Source: Colwellia sp. (GTDB lineage Bacteria; Pseudomonadota; Gammaproteobacteria; Enterobacterales; Alteromonadaceae). From it: a stretch of 64,000 nt of DNA. A program made the position numbers and the translations under genes. Below are positions 180-64,000 of the stretch, piece after piece. Under the pieces are notes generated by a model, which had not been told where the DNA came from, searched no databases, and worked only from the letters and a program-made list of their open reading frames with translations. The stretch lies in the NCBI GenBank assembly GCA_013215385.1, contig JABSOY010000020.1, positions 26,511 through 90,510 of the forward strand. The letters are read 5' to 3'. Numbering within the stretch: position 1 is the first letter of the stretch; every line of letters starts with the position of its first letter.

Positions 180-1462
<1,283 letters not shown>

Positions 1463-1514
1463 AGACTGCTATCTGCAGTAAAGTACCGCTGTAGATAGCC
1501 ATTTGAGGCATAAC

Positions 1515-2363: not shown

Positions 2364-2399
2364 ATGCCGTTGAACTATTTGACGGCATTGCTTCTTTAT
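2364..2399 (+). terminator. possible rho-independent terminator of fghA
   Basis: Stem ATGCCGT (2364-2370) pairs with ACGGCAT (2382-2388), followed by a T-rich tail. The stem is short and the loop is 11 nt. Confidence 0.35.
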
Positions 2400-2427
2400 A
2401 TACCTTCAATGCTTAATTAGCAGTGCA

Positions 2428-2955
2428 TTATAGAGCCGATTTACACAAACCGTATGCATAAGAGTCCACATATTGATTATTAATTAAGATATGTTGCTTA
2501 AAACATCCTTCTCGAGAGAAGCCCATTTTTTCCAATACGACGAAAGAAGCTTCATTATGCACAGAACAAAATGCGACTAATTTGTTAAAATTAAGCTCAT
2601 TGAGCACATATTCTTTAACTAGCTTTAATGCACTGCTAGTAATACCTTTCCTTTGGAAACCACTTTTTATAATAAAACCAATTTCAGCCGTTTTAGTGTC
2701 ATGGTTTACAACTCTAAGTGAAACCCAGCCAATTTTTTCATCAGTAGCTATTTTCGTGATCGGTAAAGTGCACCAGCGATCACTTTTTATATCCCAGGGT
2801 AATGATCTAATTTTAAATGCTGCTTTTGCTTCTTCTGTTGTCAGTGTTTTAGAGACATGTTTCATAATTTTTGAGCACGTTAAAATATCAACAAAAAACT
2901 CAAAATCCAATTCGCAAAGTGGCGATAAATTAATTCTATCATCTGATAATTGCAC
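2428..2955 (-). CDS. GNAT family N-acetyltransferase (RimJ/RimL-like)
   Basis: 175 aa with a GTG start. The acetyl-CoA binding stretch is EIGFIIKSGFQRKGITSSALKLV and the length fits a GNAT. An attC R'-like core lies 20 bp upstream, followed by an AAGGA RBS. Confidence 0.8.
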   Translation of the reverse strand: MQLSDDRINLSPLCELDFEFFVDILTCSKIMKHVSKTLTTEEAKAAFKIRSLPWDIKSDRWCTLPITKIATDEKIGWVSLRVVNHDTKTAEIGFIIKSGFQRKGITSSALKLVKEYVLNELNFNKLVAFCSVHNEASFVVLEKMGFSREGCFKQHILINNQYVDSYAYGLCKSAL

Positions 2956-2967
2956 GATAATCCTTTA

Positions 2968-3072
2968 GTTTTATAACGCCATATTAAGCGGAAAATAATA
3001 ATTAGCTAAAATTTGTGAGGAAAAAACAACCGCTAGTAGTTATTTGTCCGTTTTAACCCCTCATAGTTTTTT
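2968..3072 (-). repeat. attC-like recombination site (degenerate member)
   Basis: The left end TATAACGCC-ATATTAAGCGG and central GCTAAAATTTGTGAGGAAAAAACAACC match the family. The right end is CCGTTTTAA...GTTTTTT. The right core overlaps the stop codon of the upstream cassette ORF. Confidence 0.5.
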
Positions 3073-4093
3073 ACAAATACTTTTGAAACCAACTAACTAA
3101 CTCTTGATTAGCCTTTTCTTTATTTATCATTAAACCATGGTCGTCATCTGGATATAGAACCAGCTTATGAGGTATATTATTCTTTGATAACGCCTCAGCG
3201 AGGTCAATGGAATGATTGACTGATACCCGTTTATCATTAGTGCCATGTAACAGCAAAATGGGAACATTTGGTGATAATTTATCAACCCAAGTTAATACTG
3301 AACGTTTGGCTAATTCCGTTATTTTGTTTTCGTTGTAATCAGGAATTCGATTTTTATACACTTTTTCCATAGAAGGGCGATATTCTAACCCTTTTAATAA
3401 ATCTGTATTTCCTGCAATAGTTGCTATCGCTTTAATATTTTTAACTTGCTTTAAAGCTATGTGTGTCTGCATTCCACCTCTACTAAAGCCATACATACCT
3501 ACTCGTTCAGGATCCGCACCTTCAATTTTAGAAATGTAATTTAATAACGCAGAAACATCATTAACATCTTTTCCGCCAAATTCATCGTGAGCAACATTTT
3601 TTGTACGAGTACCTCGATATTGGCTTCCTCGATATTGACTGCCAATAATAACAAAACCTTCATTGGCAATTGGAAATAAGTTATGCATCATAGAGCCAAA
3701 AACGACTGAACCGAAGCGACCATTGCCACCTCGGTTATATATTAACACCGGTAATTTCTTTACACTTGATTTAGGCTTAATAATATAGCCTTCTACTTCA
3801 TTACCATCGACTTGATACTTAAAAGTGCGGCACGACAAGTTACTCTTATATTGGTTAAATTTATCTTCTCCAAACATGGAGTCAAAAAATGACATTGCCT
3901 TTAATAGCTTTTCTTCAGACTTAATTCTACTTTTACGTTTTTTCTCCATAAAACCACGCCATGATTCGTAGCTTGTAAATTGAGCGCTAAAACAGTTTTG
4001 TTGATTTTTTATTTTTTCATCATTGATCAGGTTTGATGCTTGAGAAGTAAAAGAAGCTACAACTAAAAATAATCCTACTAAATATTTACTCAC
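3071..4093 (-). CDS. secreted S9-type serine peptidase / alpha-beta hydrolase
   Basis: Signal peptide MSKYLVGLFLVVASFTSQA. The nucleophile elbow is GFSRGG, with a late LLLHGTNDKRV and DDDHG (Ser-Asp-His order). GTG start with a GGAG RBS. The gene is flanked by attC-like sites. Confidence 0.75.
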   Translation of the reverse strand: MSKYLVGLFLVVASFTSQASNLINDEKIKNQQNCFSAQFTSYESWRGFMEKKRKSRIKSEEKLLKAMSFFDSMFGEDKFNQYKSNLSCRTFKYQVDGNEVEGYIIKPKSSVKKLPVLIYNRGGNGRFGSVVFGSMMHNLFPIANEGFVIIGSQYRGSQYRGTRTKNVAHDEFGGKDVNDVSALLNYISKIEGADPERVGMYGFSRGGMQTHIALKQVKNIKAIATIAGNTDLLKGLEYRPSMEKVYKNRIPDYNENKITELAKRSVLTWVDKLSPNVPILLLHGTNDKRVSVNHSIDLAEALSKNNIPHKLVLYPDDDHGLMINKEKANQELVSWFQKYL

Positions 4094-4122
4094 ATGAACT
4101 CCGTATCGGTGATTAATTAAAT

Positions 4123-4220
4123 TTCTAACGCTAGATTAAGCGGTAAAATAAGTCAGCTAAAATACCGAACTAAGTGTAAGTAGCCAACCATTTATGTTCA
4201 GTTAGGTTGCTTTGTTATAC
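4123..4220 (-). repeat. attC-like recombination site
   Basis: Sequence runs TTCTAACGC-TAGATTAAGCGG ... AGCCAACC ... GTTATAC. The inverse cores are TTCTAAC and GTTATAC, and the site ends directly at the stop of ORF 4221..4655. Confidence 0.6.
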
Positions 4221-4655
4221 TTAAGTAAGAAGTGAAAATTGAGATTTGAACTGAGCGATCAATTTTTTATTTTTTGAAGAGATAATTAAGCACTTTTCAG
4301 CCTGGCAAATAAAACTAAATAGTTTATCTATTGGCTGCCCGTTGTTATCCAATTTAGCAATAAAGTCATAGAAGTTATATATCTTATTAGAAGATTTACT
4401 CGAGCTAGTAATATAGTCTTCTGAACTCAATTCCATAATTCGCTTCGGGTCAAACTTAACTAACCTAATTAAGGAAACATTATACTCATTTTCTATGTCG
4501 CAAATATAATTATGAACACTTTGTTTACTCGTTGATTCTTTGCAATTTTCAGGCATTACAATAACCTGATCAAATGCATTAATAGTTAAAACATTATCGT
4601 TCGATATTACTGTACTTGAAAACCCTACTGCCAACAATATAGCTAAATATTTCAT
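4221..4655 (-). CDS. hypothetical secreted protein (cassette ORF)
   Basis: 144 aa with N-terminal signal-like MKYLAILLAVGFSSTVIS and an AGGAG RBS. I recognise no family. Confidence 0.6.
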   Translation of the reverse strand: MKYLAILLAVGFSSTVISNDNVLTINAFDQVIVMPENCKESTSKQSVHNYICDIENEYNVSLIRLVKFDPKRIMELSSEDYITSSSKSSNKIYNFYDFIAKLDNNGQPIDKLFSFICQAEKCLIISSKNKKLIAQFKSQFSLLT

Positions 4656-4670
4656 CTGAACTCCTTGTAT

Positions 4671-4763
4671 GTATAACGCCTAATAAGCGGGAATAAATAG
4701 TTGATTAAAATTGCAACGAACCAAGATTTAATCGTTTTTTCTTCATCATATTTTCACACAAGG
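4671..4763 (-). repeat. partial or degenerate attC-like site overlapping the 3' end of the MocR gene
   Basis: The left half GTATAACGCC-TAATAAGCGG-GAATAAATAGTTGATTAAAATTGCAACGAACCAAG matches the family well. The expected right half (CCGTTT..CTTGTTAxx) is at best very degenerate. Confidence 0.45.
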
Positions 4764-25148: not shown

Positions 25149-26048
25149 TCAACTATCAGTTTGTTCTGACATTTCCTGTAAACTTTGCCATAACAATGAA
25201 GCTACAGGACCCAACAATCTATTTTTATTTTTTAATAGACAGTAATTTACCTGTAGAGAGTTATAGCTATCAACTAATGCTAACGGCCTTAATTGTCCCG
25301 ATGCTAATTCTTGTTTGATCAAATGTTCAGGTAAACCACCCCAGCCCATACCACTCAGAATTAGCGTTTTCTTAGTAGCAAAATCATTAACATACCAACA
25401 TCTTTGACCCGTTTGCACGCCAAATAATTGTCCTTTGCTTTGCTTGCCAGAATCTTGGATCACTATTTGATACTCTTTTTCAAGTTGACGAGCTTTAATT
25501 AGCATTTGGTGCCTATTTATTAATTTTGGCGCGGCAACGCTAACCACAGATGCTTGATGAATGTTCAATAAATCATATTTTTGATTAGTACTTGTCTCAT
25601 CGATAACAACAGAAATAGCCAAATCAGCTTGTTCTTTGTCAAGCGCTGCAACAGCACCGCTTATTTGCTCTTGACGAATGATCACCTGAGTATCTGGGTA
25701 TTCATATTGAATTTTTTCTAATACTGGCAAGATAATAGTCAAATCAAAAGTGCTGTTAACGGCTAAGATTATAACGGCTTCATTACCTGCATTAAGGTGC
25801 TTACTAAGATCTTCTATTTCTTGGGCCTTCTGCAATAACATTAAAGCCAGTTGATAGATTTGTTGACCTTGCATTGTTAAGCTCATGCGATAGCCTTCCC
25901 GGTTAAACAGCTCTATACCTAACTGGCTTTCTAGCTGTTTTATACCTTTACTCACAGCGGCTTGAGTCTTAAATAGTGTTTCGCTAGCCGTTTTTAATGT
26001 GCCTAACTCAGCAACAGTTTTTAGCATTTTTAATTGTTCAATTTTCAT
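25149..26048 (-). CDS. LysR family transcriptional regulator
   Basis: I prefer the ATG at 26048 (MKIEQLKMLKTVAELGTLKTASETLFKTQAAVSKGIKQLE). Confidence 0.85.
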   Translation of the reverse strand: MKIEQLKMLKTVAELGTLKTASETLFKTQAAVSKGIKQLESQLGIELFNREGYRMSLTMQGQQIYQLALMLLQKAQEIEDLSKHLNAGNEAVIILAVNSTFDLTIILPVLEKIQYEYPDTQVIIRQEQISGAVAALDKEQADLAISVVIDETSTNQKYDLLNIHQASVVSVAAPKLINRHQMLIKARQLEKEYQIVIQDSGKQSKGQLFGVQTGQRCWYVNDFATKKTLILSGMGWGGLPEHLIKQELASGQLRPLALVDSYNSLQVNYCLLKNKNRLLGPVASLLWQSLQEMSEQTDS

Positions 26049-60885: not shown

Positions 60886-60944
60886 TTTTAACCTTTACAA
60901 TTTCCTACCAACCCTTTTGATGGTCGATATACCCCAATATTTTG

Positions 60945-61028
60945 CCGCCACTATATCAGCTATATATTATTAAGGTAAATTTTGGACTATGTCTCAGAGT
61001 TTAGCTGTTTTCGGGTTTGCTGTTAGTT
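60945..61028 (-). repeat. degenerate terminal attC-like site
   Basis: GGTAAATTTTGGACT...AGCTGTTTTCGGGTTTGCTGTTAGTT resembles the family centre and right half (GGCTAAAATTTTGAGGAAC...AACTGT.ATTTTTCCGTTT...CTTGTTAG). The left half is poorly conserved. Confidence 0.35.
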
Positions 61029-61221
61029 ACGCAGGTTGATAAATAAGTTATCTCGCTAAATCCTCTCATATCACCATAGAAAGCTAAAGCGTATAATTAT
61101 GTCAGTATGGTTTGCTTTCGTAGCCAAACTTCATTACAGGCATTAAACCAAATTTCTTCTTTTGCCACATAACGGTCATTACCTAAAAAACACAAAACAA
61201 CGTTTCGGATTAGAATTCGTA

Positions 61222-61322
61222 TCGATAACGCCCCACTAAGAGGCAAATAATAGTTGGTTAAAATAAGCGACGAAGGAGCAAAAACCAACTATTTTTTGTC
61301 CTTGTTTAACAGCTTGTTAGCC
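61222..61322 (-). repeat. attC-like recombination site
   Basis: CGATAACGCC-CCACTAAGAGG-CAAATAATAGTTGGTT ... AACCAACTATTTTTT-GTCCTTGTTTAACAGCTT-GTTAGCC. The internal arms AATAGTTGGTT and AACCAACTATT are a perfect match. Confidence 0.7.
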
Positions 61323-61324
61323 AT

Positions 61325-61849
61325 TTATTCGGGTTCCATAGGAGCGTTGTCAAATAATGTAATATAGTCAGTACTTTCGGATAACTTTAAAAAAATAGAA
61401 AATTTAACATTCTTCGGTTCTTTAAATACTTCCTTAAAATTGACATTCACTGCAAATTCGAAACCACTAGGTTTTTCAGCCCTCATTTTGTCTTGAATGA
61501 TAATTAAATTATTTATTGCTTCTTCAGTGAAGACAAGTTCATATTCTGTCCTTTCAGCGAGAGAGTTAAGCCATCCATTTTCAGCGGGAAGTGTTTTAAC
61601 AGCGTAAATATATAAAGGGTAATTTTGTATAATGTTGCCTTTTGTAGTGACTAAAGTTAAAGATATTTTCGTTTTGGAGATATTTATCTCTAGTGGTTTA
61701 GTGATATGTATTTTGGCTTTTAATTCATTTGGGGCAAGTTCCAAAAAGCTATTTTCATCAAAAGAACTAAATTTAAGCATTGTTGCAAAGGGAATGCTTG
61801 TGCAACTGCAAAGGATTAAGCAATTTATGATTATAAAAATCCGTTTCAT
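61325..61849 (-). CDS. hypothetical lipoprotein (cassette ORF)
   Basis: 174 aa with lipobox-like MKRIFIIINCLILCSCTS and a GGAG RBS. I recognise no family. Confidence 0.65.
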   Translation of the reverse strand: MKRIFIIINCLILCSCTSIPFATMLKFSSFDENSFLELAPNELKAKIHITKPLEINISKTKISLTLVTTKGNIIQNYPLYIYAVKTLPAENGWLNSLAERTEYELVFTEEAINNLIIIQDKMRAEKPSGFEFAVNVNFKEVFKEPKNVKFSIFLKLSESTDYITLFDNAPMEPE

Positions 61850-61864
61850 GATAACTCCATTTAT

Positions 61865-61962
61865 GGCTAACGCTTATATAAGCGGAAAATTATAGTAGGC
61901 TAAAATTTTGAGGAACGAAAAAAAGCCAACTGTAATTTTTCCGTTTGATGTTCTTGTTAGCT
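61865..61962 (-). repeat. attC-like recombination site
   Basis: GGCTAACGC-TTATATAAGCGG ... GGCTAAAATTTTGAGGAACGAAAAAAAGCCAACTG ... TTTTTCCGTTTGATGTTCTT-GTTAGCT. The right core contains the stop codon of ORF 61957..62265. Confidence 0.7.
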
Positions 61963-62265
61963 TTTAGCTGATTGACCATTATCCAGTTTCAGTAAACAAT
62001 TACCATTCTTCTGTTTATTGACTGAATAACCATCCGCAAAAAACTTACGATCTGAAAAACTTATTTCAAACTTACTTTTTAAATTAAAATAAGCCTGAAA
62101 ATTGCAGTTCTTTAATAAAAGTTCTGATATGTAATGATTTTTTGATATGAGATTACCGTTAATGTCGGTATTTTCACTGGTGACAACTTTACCTTCCAAC
62201 ACTTTGTTATTCTCGGCATAAGAGCCAAACGAAAAAACTAATAATACTAAAATTGAATATTTCAC
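61957..62265 (-). CDS. hypothetical small secreted protein (cassette ORF)
   Basis: 102 aa with a GTG start after AAGGA and signal peptide MKYSILVLLVFSFGSYA. Confidence 0.6.
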   Translation of the reverse strand: MKYSILVLLVFSFGSYAENNKVLEGKVVTSENTDINGNLISKNHYISELLLKNCNFQAYFNLKSKFEISFSDRKFFADGYSVNKQKNGNCLLKLDNGQSAKS

Positions 62266-62289
62266 ATAAATCCTTATTTGTGATTAAAA

Positions 62290-62386
62290 AGCTAACGCCC
62301 CATTAAGAGGCTTTTAATTGTTGGCTAAAATGCGAGGAACGAAGCTAGCCAACTGTTCAGCGTCCGTCTTGAATAGCTTGTTATGT
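62290..62386 (-). repeat. attC-like recombination site
   Basis: AGCTAACGCC-CCATTAAGAGG ... TTGGCTAAAATGCGAGGAACGAAGCTAGCCAACTG ... CGTCCGTCTTGAATAGCTT-GTTATGT. The right core contains the stop codon of ORF 62381..62641. Confidence 0.7.
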
Positions 62387-62641
62387 AGATCGACTCTCCA
62401 TCCGTGAATTTTGGAAATTTAGGTGACTACTTCTAATAAACATAACTATGGAAATGGTAATGACAGCTAGTCCAAATCCAATACAAATGTAGTCACCACT
62501 TGTATATGACACATTTACTCTTCCGTTGAAGCCAGAAGCATATGCGTCTGCAAACTTACCCAGAACATAAGCTCGGCTTAAAACGGGTGTAATACACATA
62601 AAAGTGCCTAAAATTGCAATTAATTTTATAAACTTATCCAT
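62381..62641 (-). CDS. hypothetical small membrane protein (cassette ORF)
   Basis: 86 aa with two hydrophobic helices (LIAILGTFMCITPVL and ICIGFGLAVITISIVMFI) and an AGGAG RBS. Confidence 0.55.
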   Translation of the reverse strand: MDKFIKLIAILGTFMCITPVLSRAYVLGKFADAYASGFNGRVNVSYTSGDYICIGFGLAVITISIVMFIRSSHLNFQNSRMESRST

Positions 62642-62668
62642 TGAATACTTCTCCTTTTTTTGAAATCT

Positions 62669-62760
62669 ACATAACGCTTTGCTAAGCGGTAAATAATGGT
62701 TGGCTATAATCGCGAAGCGATGGCTAACTGTTATTTTTCCGTTTAAGCAACTTGTTATGT
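62669..62760 (-). repeat. attC-like recombination site
   Basis: The ends ACATAAC and GTTATGT are perfect inverse cores. The L-box-like pair GCTAAGCGG and CCGTTTAAGC carries a bulge. The central stem is TGGTTGGCTA...TGGCTAACTG with the tip TCGC-GAA-GCGA. Confidence 0.75.
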
Positions 62761-62788: not shown

Positions 62789-63901
62789 TTAGTCAGGTAT
62801 TTCTATTTCTTGATTTTCATTTATTCGAAGACTATGGAGCTTAAGAACATCAATCGATGTTCTTCTCCCTGATGTGATGAGTAATTGACATGTAATAGAT
62901 ATTTGCTTTTTCTCATGTTCAGCCTTTAACGTCTCATAAAGTCTAGAGTCTGTTTCTATAAAGCAAGTATGCTCTTTACCATCAATCTCTAATCGTAAAT
63001 AAACCCTGCCTTTTTCATCCTCTATAGGCCAACTATATTTCTCAATATAAGCTGGTAAATCAACGTACTCTTTAGCTTTACTTTTACTCAATATACCTTT
63101 AAAACGCTCTATTTTTTCCCTGTCAGAATAATTAAAAACAACCTTGTTAGGAACATTGTCAAAAACTTCCTCCTTGAATGACCAGTCAAAATTGAACTCT
63201 AATTTATCTGAACTATTTGAAAATAAGTCGAGAAAATTATGACAAAACGAACTGTCGATACCGATACTGTGTAATTTTGCAGGAGACTCATAATCATTAG
63301 ATTTTATTTTTTCAGAAATTCTAGATAAGGCGATTGCCAAATTAGCATTTACGTACCGGCTAAGCGAGGTCTCATGCTCAAATACATTGTTCTGACTATA
63401 TTCTTCATCAATATCTAATAATTGAAGTTCAACAGTGTATATGAATGATCCCGCTTTAGGTGCCAACATATTTACACCTGATAGATAATGTTTAATAGCT
63501 TTCCTTTTGCCTTTAACTTTTATGTTATTACTTGCAGATGACTTTATAATTCCATACAGTCCTGTTAAGGCATTTAGACCTTCACTAAACTTGATTCGAC
63601 CATGATTTATTCGTTCTCCGGATGAGCGAACCTGTAAAAAGTCACTTTCTCCATTAAGAAGTTTATTTCTGAAATTTTCAGAGCAAAATCCATGTGCATT
63701 TGAAATGTTTAGAATAGCTTCAGCTAATAAGGTATTTGACTGCTCATGATTAACTAATACTTCAGCAGGCAGAACGATCTCAAGCTCATGGGGTTGGTCA
63801 TACCAAACACTAAATCGTTCAGGGACAACTGTCTTTTCCTGAATTCCATTTATACGAAAGTAATTTTTAAGAGAAGTAAGAATAGCTTGATTATTGTTCA
63901 T
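62789..63901 (-). CDS. hypothetical protein, 370 aa (second gene of a multi-gene cassette)
   Basis: Long uninterrupted ORF. Its ATG overlaps the stop of an upstream ORF (ATGA at 63898-63901). It has no signal peptide and no domain I recognise. Confidence 0.7.
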   Translation of the reverse strand: MNNNQAILTSLKNYFRINGIQEKTVVPERFSVWYDQPHELEIVLPAEVLVNHEQSNTLLAEAILNISNAHGFCSENFRNKLLNGESDFLQVRSSGERINHGRIKFSEGLNALTGLYGIIKSSASNNIKVKGKRKAIKHYLSGVNMLAPKAGSFIYTVELQLLDIDEEYSQNNVFEHETSLSRYVNANLAIALSRISEKIKSNDYESPAKLHSIGIDSSFCHNFLDLFSNSSDKLEFNFDWSFKEEVFDNVPNKVVFNYSDREKIERFKGILSKSKAKEYVDLPAYIEKYSWPIEDEKGRVYLRLEIDGKEHTCFIETDSRLYETLKAEHEKKQISITCQLLITSGRRTSIDVLKLHSLRINENQEIEIPD

Positions 63902-64000
63902 ACTTTAGCCACCTCCAAGTTGTAAATCATTTCCGCTTTACTAGCTAATTCCATCATGTTTACTAAAGCCTTACTATCAAACCTTTGTTTCAATGGAATC
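63898..64000 (-). CDS. 3' end of an unidentified gene (partial, continues beyond the window)
   Basis: The minus-strand frame is open from the window edge: ...IPLKQRFDSKALVNMMELASKAEMIYNLEVAKV*. Its stop TGA overlaps the ATG of the 370-aa ORF. Confidence 0.5.
   Translation of the reverse strand, partial: IPLKQRFDSKALVNMMELASKAEMIYNLEVAKV

What the first reader, a model, noticed from the sequence alone, without database searches (positions are those of the whole stretch)
2428..4763. Integrase-less cluster of attC-delimited cassettes (CALIN-like) between fghA and a MocR regulator
The GNAT, S9 peptidase and 144-aa secreted ORFs are all on the minus strand. They are separated by imperfect palindromes of about 95-100 bp with the layout xxTAACGCC-(N)-TAAGCGG ... 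GGCTAAAAT..GAGGAAC..AGCCAAC ... CCGTTT..CTT-GTTAxx. That layout is inverse core sites plus bulged inner repeats, which is the architecture of integron attC sites. The same family recurs 56 kb away at 60.9-64 kb. Each ORF starts 15-25 nt after a core and carries its own RBS, as in canonical cassettes. No intI or attI is visible. The GNAT gene has a cassette-like 5' junction but no attC at its 3' end.
Basis: partly seen in the sequence, partly recalled or inferred. Interest (0 to 1): 0.7.

Follow-up and report, generated by a model that had tools for sequence, protein, structure and literature searches.

The report
Stranded, decaying integron cassettes in Colwellia
Three accessory genes between mocR and fghA in an uncultured Colwellia genome are integron gene cassettes stranded away from any integrase, with their recombination sites partly eroded; this is a well-known kind of element (a CALIN), so the case is ordinary.

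Summary
The spacers at 2970-3068 (E1) and 4122-4220 (E2), and a half-copy at 4673-4725 (E3), belong to one repeat family with four cleaner copies at 61.2-62.8 kb.

A pattern taken from the family hits 119+ stretches in Colwellia, Pseudoalteromonas, Shewanella and Vibrio genomes. In seven of them it lies 0.7-3 kb from a divergent integron integrase (TIGR02249). 44 outside copies show a hairpin with strong covariation and extra bases on one arm, the attC architecture.

A covariance model built only from outside copies scores E1 at 55 bits, E2 at 33 bits and the four distal copies at 79-90 bits. Nothing else in 64 kb scores significantly, so this is not a REP family.

Sister Colwellia contigs lack the 2.3-kb, low-GC block, and homologues of the S9 hydrolase and the GNAT sit between attC sites in other arrays.

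The sites here are eroded. E1 has lost R'', E2 has 9 of 29 pairs broken, E3 is a 3' half fused to mocR, and the GNAT cassette ends at its R''.

Verdict: a small decaying CALIN, a new member of a known kind, of modest interest.

The parts
2427..2976 (-). GNAT cassette: Acetyltransf_3 ORF 2428-2955, with a 5' boundary at the G|TT of E1. The 3' end is truncated at TATAA|, where the R'' of its own attC should begin.
   Evidence: Pfam PF13302, 81 bits. A 46% identical homologue in Colwellia sp. MB3u-8 (L056 1651-2208) sits between attC sites at 1563-1665 and 2203-2295 and shares the 5' leader GTTATAAA..AGGA..TCGTGCAA. Similarity to that cassette stops after ...GGCTYTATAA. Sister-genome flank resumes at about 2419-2426.
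2977..3068 (-). E1: attC of the S9 cassette. The L', R' and inner stem are kept; the R'' core and the adjacent 5-bp helix are lost.
   Evidence: CM R1 55.4 bits, E 1e-11, 7 of 29 pairs non-standard. nhmmer covers model positions 10-98 only. The equivalent site in Thalassotalea (L043 2400-2500, 98.7 bits) has CTTCTAACAAATCATT where the window has CTATGAGGGGTT.
2977..4128 (-). S9 cassette: secreted S9 / alpha-beta hydrolase ORF 3071-4093 plus E1.
   Evidence: Pfam PF00326, 104 bits. A 73% identical homologue in Thalassotalea sp. ND16A (L043 1385-2395) lies exactly between two attC sites, with a conserved leader after GTTAGAA.
4129..4220 (-). E2: attC of the orf144 cassette. It is full length, with R'' GTATAAC and R' GTTAGAA, but the L-box and stem pairing is eroded.
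   Evidence: CM R1 33.5 bits, E 5e-6, 9 of 29 pairs non-standard. nhmmer covers model positions 3-99, E 6e-8. Fold z-score -0.45 and +0.33 on the two strands.
4129..4676 (-). orf144 cassette: 144-aa ORF 4221-4655 with a signal-peptide-like N-terminus, no known family, plus E2.
   Evidence: no Pfam or PADLOC hit. No relatives were found in JGI metagenome contigs.
4677..4725 (-). E3: the 3' half of an attC (loop, inner stem, L', R'), fused to the mocR coding sequence after CTTGG. It supplies the last 4 codons and the stop of MocR.
   Evidence: nhmmer covers model positions 44-98 only, E 2e-5. The full-length CM score is 15.5 bits, E 0.27. Sister mocR DNA and protein homology ends at 4721...RLNLG|SLQF* here against ...RLNLG|TGK* in sisters.
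61222..62760 (-). Second cluster: four well-formed attC sites (61222-61322, 61864-61962, 62289-62386, 62668-62760) separating small ORFs. This is the distal end of a cassette array that runs off the window at 64000.
   Evidence: CM R1 90.2, 84.8, 81.2 and 78.7 bits. Hairpin z-scores reach -6.0. The metagenome contig breaks 647 bp beyond the window end.

Best explanation
Window 2427-4725 is a 2.3-kb fragment of an integron cassette array. It holds three co-oriented cassettes (orf144, a secreted S9-type hydrolase and a GNAT acetyltransferase) between mocR and fghA in an uncultured Colwellia. No integrase lies within at least 59 kb, so it is a CALIN.

The spacers are attC sites of the family used by chromosomal integrons of Colwellia, Pseudoalteromonas, Shewanella and Vibrio. 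The gene (minus) strand is the attC top strand and the window + strand is the recombinogenic bottom strand.

The fragment was not placed by a canonical IntI crossover at G|TT. Its upstream end is in the loop of an attC, joined to mocR at a TTGG shared by both partners. Its downstream end is at the R'' of the GNAT cassette's lost attC.

Inferred, not shown: the sites have since eroded, so the cassettes are probably no longer excisable and are being domesticated. With no Pc promoter, they would be expressed by read-through from mocR or from their own weak promoters.
For: Family and structure:
- 44 non-window copies give a 29-pair hairpin with 95.1% of cells paired, against 28-48% when partners are slid.
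- There are 141 compensatory cells against 45 in shuffles (0 of 500 reach the observed value).
- All unpaired extra bases lie on the 3' arm of the bottom strand.

Link to integrons:
- In L040, L070, L052, L062, L082, L021 and L103 the pattern lies 0.7-3 kb from a full-length integrase and always divergent from it.
- Four of these integrases were checked and score 397-466 bits on TIGR02249 'integron integrase' (cut-off 265).

Window sites:
- CM and HMM scores for E1, E2 and E3 are given. No significant hit lies outside the two clusters.

Insertion:
- Sister contigs with MocR 85-94% identical carry other genes between mocR and fghA or frmA and have no attC.
- The block is 32.7% GC against 41-43% for frmA, fghA and mocR.

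Cassette identity:
- S9 and GNAT homologues are flanked by attC sites in Thalassotalea and Colwellia arrays, with the same 5' boundaries.

Definition of CALIN: PMC4889954.
Against: - The generic IntegronFinder attC model could not be run. My model is family-specific, and its training sites were collected with a 35-nt pattern derived from the window's own copies, which inflates scores for the 3' arm (most of all for E3).
- E1-E3 do not fold better than shuffles.
- Low-scoring sites also occur inside genuine arrays (L043 1260-1359 at 34.7 bits, L112 2028-2125 at 36.8 bits), so 'eroded and immobile' is an inference, not a demonstration.
- orf144 has no known cassette homologue.
- Whether the genome has an intI is unknown, because the second array runs off the window.
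- No promoter-like excess was found in the block (9 sites against 12 expected), so expression is unproven.
Confidence: 0.85

Rival explanations
1. The spacers are an ordinary REP-like intergenic palindrome or terminator family of this genome, unrelated to integrons.
For: E1-E3 are intergenic imperfect palindromes that fold weakly. Only 64 kb of the genome could be scanned.
Against: Apart from the seven elements in the two clusters, nothing in 64 kb is significant with either the CM or the HMM. The family lies next to TIGR02249 integron integrases in seven genomes with consistent polarity. It has the attC-specific asymmetric bulges and R-box cores. None has a T-run, and no terminator-like site falls in a spacer.
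Confidence: 0.02
2. The cluster arose by integrase-catalysed insertion of a circular multi-cassette intermediate at a secondary (attG-type, GWT) site in the chromosome, as shown experimentally by Loot et al.
For: Such insertions are frequent and are proposed to generate small CALINs and SALINs (10.1101/2022.09.11.507474). The same replicon carries an array with intact attC sites 56 kb away. The downstream junction falls within 1 nt of the AA/C of R''.
Against: An attC x attG insertion gives no attC upstream of the first ORF and a complete attC after the last one. Here the layout is the reverse: a half attC upstream, broken in its loop and not at G|TT, and none downstream. Extra deletions would have to be invoked at both ends.
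Confidence: 0.1
3. The cluster is still a working reservoir: its cassettes can be excised by the integrase of the nearby array and reinserted at attI.
For: E2 keeps both cores and is significant with the CM. Genuine arrays contain sites that score as low. Cury et al. propose such exchange.
Against: Excision needs two competent sites. E1 has no R'' core at the right spacing and has 5 broken pairs in the R box and adjacent helix. E3 lacks its whole 5' arm. The GNAT cassette has no site at all. Fold energies equal those of shuffles.
Confidence: 0.12

Closest known systems
[quoted passage not shown] 2016, PMC4889954)
   Same: At least two attC sites lie less than 4 kb apart on one strand, with no intI or intI pseudogene nearby. 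The cassettes are co-oriented, promoter-less and of unknown or accessory function, with no resistance genes. The element sits in a replicon that also carries another array.
   Different: The sites are visibly eroded and the element ends inside attC sites rather than at crossover points, so it looks like a late, fossilising stage. The generic IntegronFinder model was not run.
Sedentary chromosomal integron arrays of marine Gammaproteobacteria (Vibrio VCR-type attC; Shewanella, Pseudoalteromonas, Colwellia)
   Same: The attC sequence family is the same: TAAC-AAG-N5-C-AAR-(C)-GG ... CCKCTTA-N4-GGC-GTTA. The bulges are on the same arm as in VCRs (VCR sequence recalled from memory). Cassette homologues are shared with Thalassotalea and Colwellia arrays.
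   Different: There is no integrase, attI or Pc here. There are only three cassettes, and the sites are heterogeneous and degraded, whereas the array at 61-64 kb has sites scoring 79-90 bits.
Genome-inserted cassettes, SALIN and attG insertions (Loot et al., 10.1101/2022.09.11.507474)
   Same: Cassettes lie outside an integron, next to a host gene whose transcription could drive them. The paper proposes domestication through loss of the folded attC.
   Different: The junction structure does not match a simple attC x attG product (see rival explanations).

Membership tests
attC recombination site | Inverse core sites R'' (RYYYAAC) and R' (GTTRRRY) at the two ends | tested here: inconclusive
   E2 has GTATAAC ... 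GTTAGAA, so the feature is met. E1 has R' GTTATAA but no AAC at the right spacing. E3 has R' GTTATAC only. E4-E7 have both cores.
attC recombination site | Imperfect hairpin (R box, L box, variable loop) supported by covariation, with extrahelical bases on the R''-L'' arm of the bottom strand | tested here: met
   This is met for the family: 29 pairs, 95.1% paired, 141 compensatory cells, and bulges only on the 3' arm of the bottom strand. For the window copies, E1 has 22 of 29 pairs standard and E2 has 20 of 29. Neither folds better than shuffles.
attC recombination site | Significant match to an attC covariance model | tested here: met
   A family-specific CM built from 44 sites of other genomes gives E1 55.4 bits, E2 33.5 bits and E3 15.5 bits (not significant as a full site; its 3' half gives E 2e-5 with nhmmer). 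The IntegronFinder attC model was not available.
attC recombination site | Physical association of the site family with an integron integrase, in fixed polarity | tested here: met
   In seven genomes a divergent intI lies 0.7-3 kb from the first site. TIGR02249 scores 397-466 bits for the four integrases checked.
attC recombination site | Recombined by IntI as a folded bottom strand | not testable with these tools
   This needs a suicide-conjugation or excision assay.
CALIN | At least two attC sites within 4 kb of each other and no integron integrase nearby | tested here: met
   E1 and E2 are 1.05 kb apart, and the E3 half-site adds a third. tblastn with IntI1 and a Colwellia IntI finds nothing in the 64-kb window (best E 4).
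Integron gene cassette | A single, usually promoter-less ORF bounded by G|TT crossover points, found as a mobile unit in different arrays | tested here: met
   S9 (73% aa identity) and GNAT (46%) homologues lie between attC sites in L043 and L056, with the same 5' boundaries. No homologue was found for orf144.
Complete integron | intI, attI and Pc adjacent to the array | tested here: not met
   None is present in the window. The array at 61-64 kb points towards sequence beyond the window, which could not be read.
REP / dispersed intergenic palindromes | Many copies scattered through the genome beside unrelated core genes | tested here: not met
   No significant copy lies between 4.8 and 61.2 kb. 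Only 64 kb was available.

The most novel reading that the evidence does not exclude
Both ends of the stranded fragment fall at structural landmarks of attC hairpins: the loop at the upstream end, and the base of the stem at the R'' AA/C position at the downstream end. This could mean that CALINs of this type arise from breakage or processing of extruded attC hairpins, followed by microhomology joining (TTGG at the mocR junction). Candidate processes are nuclease cleavage, replication slippage, or rare top-strand cleavage by IntI. That would be a defined route from array to domesticated chromosomal genes, rather than random rearrangement.
Probability: 0.1. Interest if true: 0.45.

Novelty: new member of a known kind. 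Interest (0 to 1): 0.25.

Why it matters
CALINs are common (hundreds to thousands in RefSeq), so the element itself is not surprising.

Its modest value is as a clean, datable example of cassette domestication. The donor-type cassettes are seen intact in other arrays. The empty or alternative locus is seen in sister genomes. The sites show graded decay: a half-site, a lost R'', eroded pairing and a missing site.

It also shows that one attC family is shared across Colwellia, Thalassotalea, Pseudoalteromonas, Shewanella and Vibrio, with the same cassettes circulating between genera.

Tried and rejected
- Rfam (gathering thresholds) and tRNA scans of the window found nothing. Rfam reported no hit here.
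- A search for an attC remnant downstream of the GNAT found nothing. nhmmer gave no hit on 2380-2450, even with E up to 1000. The apparent TGCTAAT-TAAGC resemblance to R'' is native flank shared with L132.
- The idea that E3's 5' arm lies inside mocR was rejected. The MocR tail ...KKKRLNLG is native in sisters, and the HMM matches only the 3' half.
- Two JGI metagenome scans, for orf144 and for the GNAT, found no relatives.
- An attempt to place the window in the 91-kb NCBI MAG contig and read beyond 64 kb failed. Only the ENA scaffolds were returned, and they break in or near the array.
- The 63-aa ORF at 61097-61288 was rejected as a gene. Its many 'homologues' are translations of attC sites.
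- The weak CM hit at 25188-25267 (16.8 bits, E 0.12) was treated as chance.
Full report
**What is there**

Reading on the minus strand, the order is as follows:
- mocR (6153-4705; GntR plus aminotransferase domains)
- a 144-aa ORF (4655-4221)
- an S9 / alpha-beta hydrolase with a signal-peptide-like N-terminus (4093-3071; PF00326, 104 bits)
- a GNAT acetyltransferase (2955-2428; PF13302, 81 bits)
- the convergent fghA (1503-2354, with its terminator hairpin at 2364-2388) and frmA

TAACGCN5TAAGCGG occurs six times, all on the + strand, against 1.05 expected. Seven elements align as one family. They are E1 2970-3068, E2 4122-4220 and E3 about 4673-4725 in the finding, and E4-E7 at 61222-61322, 61864-61962, 62289-62386 and 62668-62760.

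**Is the family attC?**

I took the conserved 3' arm (gene strand) as a 35-nt degenerate pattern and scanned one genome per species. It hit at least 119 stretches, almost all in Colwellia, Cognaticolwellia, Thalassotalea, Pseudoalteromonas, Shewanella, Vibrio and related marine Gammaproteobacteria.

The four I checked score 397-466 bits on NCBIfam TIGR02249 'integron integrase', where the cut-off is 265. In all seven loci the integrase is divergent from the pattern strand, and the first site lies 0.7-3 kb away. This fixes the gene strand as the attC top strand.

I aligned 44 non-redundant sites from other genomes as bottom strands. They give a 29-pair consensus hairpin:
- an invariant TAAC/GTTA R box
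- a 5-bp helix that covaries freely (for example CCATT/AATGG, GCAAT/ATTGC, TTGCT/AGCAA)
- an AAG/CTT plus CGG/CCG L box
- an inner stem and a variable loop
- all unpaired extra bases on the 3' arm of the bottom strand

Of all cells, 95.1% are paired, against 28-48% when partners are slid. There are 141 compensatory cells against 45 in shuffles, and 0 of 500 shuffles reach the observed value. This is the canonical attC architecture, and it resembles Vibrio VCRs (VCR sequence from my own recollection).

**Do the window's elements belong?**

I built a covariance model from those 44 outside sites and ran it over the whole window with filters off.

| Element | Bits | E-value | Non-standard pairs |
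|---|---|---|---|
| E4 | 90.2 | 9.7e-21 | 4 of 29 |
| E5 | 84.8 | 2.5e-19 | 2 of 29 |
| E6 | 81.2 | 2.1e-18 | 3 of 29 |
| E7 | 78.7 | 9.4e-18 | 1 of 29 |
| E1 | 55.4 | 1e-11 | 7 of 29 |
| E2 | 33.5 | 5e-6 | 9 of 29 |
| E3 | 15.5 | 0.27 | not applicable |

Apart from weaker opposite-strand matches to E4-E7 themselves (18-22 bits), nothing else falls below E = 0.1. A profile HMM of the same alignment, run locally, shows the following:
- E1 lacks model positions 1-9, which is R''.
- E2 is full length.
- E3 matches positions 44-98 only, which is the 3' half (E 2e-5).
- Nothing is found downstream of the GNAT.

One caveat applies. The training sites were collected with a pattern derived from the window copies, so the 3'-arm scores are somewhat circular. 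The 5' arm, the stems and the integrase association are independent evidence.

As single strands, E5 and E7 fold as clean hairpins (z -3.1 and -6.0), and they fold better on the + (bottom) strand. E1-E3 fold no better than shuffles.

**Is the block an insertion of cassettes?**

The window comes from an uncultured Colwellia. The identical MocR is annotated 'MAG: Colwellia sp.'. Identical contigs occur in two further runs or assemblies, and a 99.9% identical copy in a third.

Sister contigs whose MocR is 85-94% identical keep FixG and mocR on one side. Most also keep fghA-frmA or frmA on the other. Between them they carry different genes, and none of them has an attC hit:

| Sister locus | Content between mocR and fghA or frmA |
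|---|---|
| L130 | AraC regulator plus aldehyde dehydrogenase |
| L132 | a DEAD-box helicase |
| L125 | a 1495-aa protein |
| L127, L134 | an M24 peptidase and several further genes |

DNA homology to the sisters stops at window 4721 on the mocR side and at about 2419-2426 on the fghA side. The intervening 2.3 kb is 32.7% GC, against 41-43% for the flanking genes.

The S9 gene has a 73% identical homologue in Thalassotalea sp. ND16A. It lies exactly between two attC sites and has the same leader after GTTAGAA. The GNAT has a 46% identical homologue in Colwellia sp. MB3u-8, also between two attC sites, with the same leader after GTTATAAA. Cassette boundaries therefore follow the G|TT rule at 4677|4676, 4129|4128 and 2977|2976.

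**State of the sites and the ends**

- *E3.* E3 starts in the loop of an attC. It is joined to mocR directly after CTTGG, four codons before the native stop (...RLNLG|SLQF* here...RLNLG|TGK* in sisters). TTGG is also the attC stem sequence that precedes the loop, so the joint has a 4-nt microhomology.
- *E1.* E1 has CTATGAGGGGTT where the Thalassotalea site has CTTCTAACAAATCATT. It has therefore lost its R'' core and the adjacent helix.
- *E2.* E2 keeps both cores but has lost L-box pairing.
- *GNAT cassette.* It follows its Colwellia homologue up to ...GGCTYTATAA and then continues into native flank. It is cut within 1 nt of the AA/C of its own R''.

Neither end is a G|TT crossover. A simple attC x attG insertion (Loot et al.) would give no site upstream and a full site downstream, and so does not explain the layout.

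I infer that an array fragment was fixed here by illegitimate, possibly hairpin-associated, recombination, or was inherited in that form. I also infer that the sites are decaying, as expected for domesticated cassettes. Low-scoring sites also exist inside real arrays, so loss of mobility is likely but not shown.

**Comparison and verdict**

The element meets the published definition of a CALIN: at least two attC sites within 4 kb and no intI nearby (PMC4889954). No intI or intI fragment is present in 64 kb.

The second cluster at 61-64 kb is the distal end of an array whose cassettes also read on the minus strand. Any integrase would therefore lie beyond 64 kb. The public contigs break there, so whether the genome encodes IntI is unknown.

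The finding is a new member of a well-known kind and of modest interest.

Noticed in passing
window 62789-64000 (continues beyond the window; L001 192-1858): The 370-aa ORF and the DUF4365 gene upstream of it match the two components of the PADLOC candidate anti-phage system PDC-M02: B at 564 bits and A at 163 bits. They sit directly upstream of attC E7, so they appear to be a two-gene defence cassette in the second array.
   Followed up: partly
window 1319-1465: A 19-bp tandem repeat (TCACTTTGATAAATAAGAG, 7.9 copies, 80% matches) fills the frmA-fghA intergenic region and overlaps the end of the frmA ORF (…[10 protein letters not shown]).
   Followed up: partly
window 2388-4721 compared with L125, L127, L130, L132, L134: The interval downstream of mocR is hypervariable among close Colwellia relatives. 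Five different gene contents are seen, and fghA itself is missing in L125. It is therefore a general hotspot for accessory genes, not only for cassettes.
   Followed up: partly
window 61097-61288: The 63-aa ORF is an artefact. It overlaps attC E4, and its dozens of tblastn 'homologues' in other genomes are translated attC sites.
   Followed up: yes
window 60886-61221: The last segment of the second array, between attC E4 and the PepSY_TM gene, has no convincing ORF and no attC at its far end. This marks the array's distal boundary next to core genes (PepSY, TonB-dependent receptor).
   Followed up: no
L043 1260-1359; L112 2028-2125: Genuine arrays in other genomes also contain attC sites with degenerate 5' arms (34.7 and 36.8 bits), so site erosion is not confined to stranded clusters.
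   Followed up: no
window 25188-25267 (-): There is a weak covariance-model hit here (16.8 bits, E 0.12), far from either cluster. It is probably a chance hairpin.
   Followed up: no
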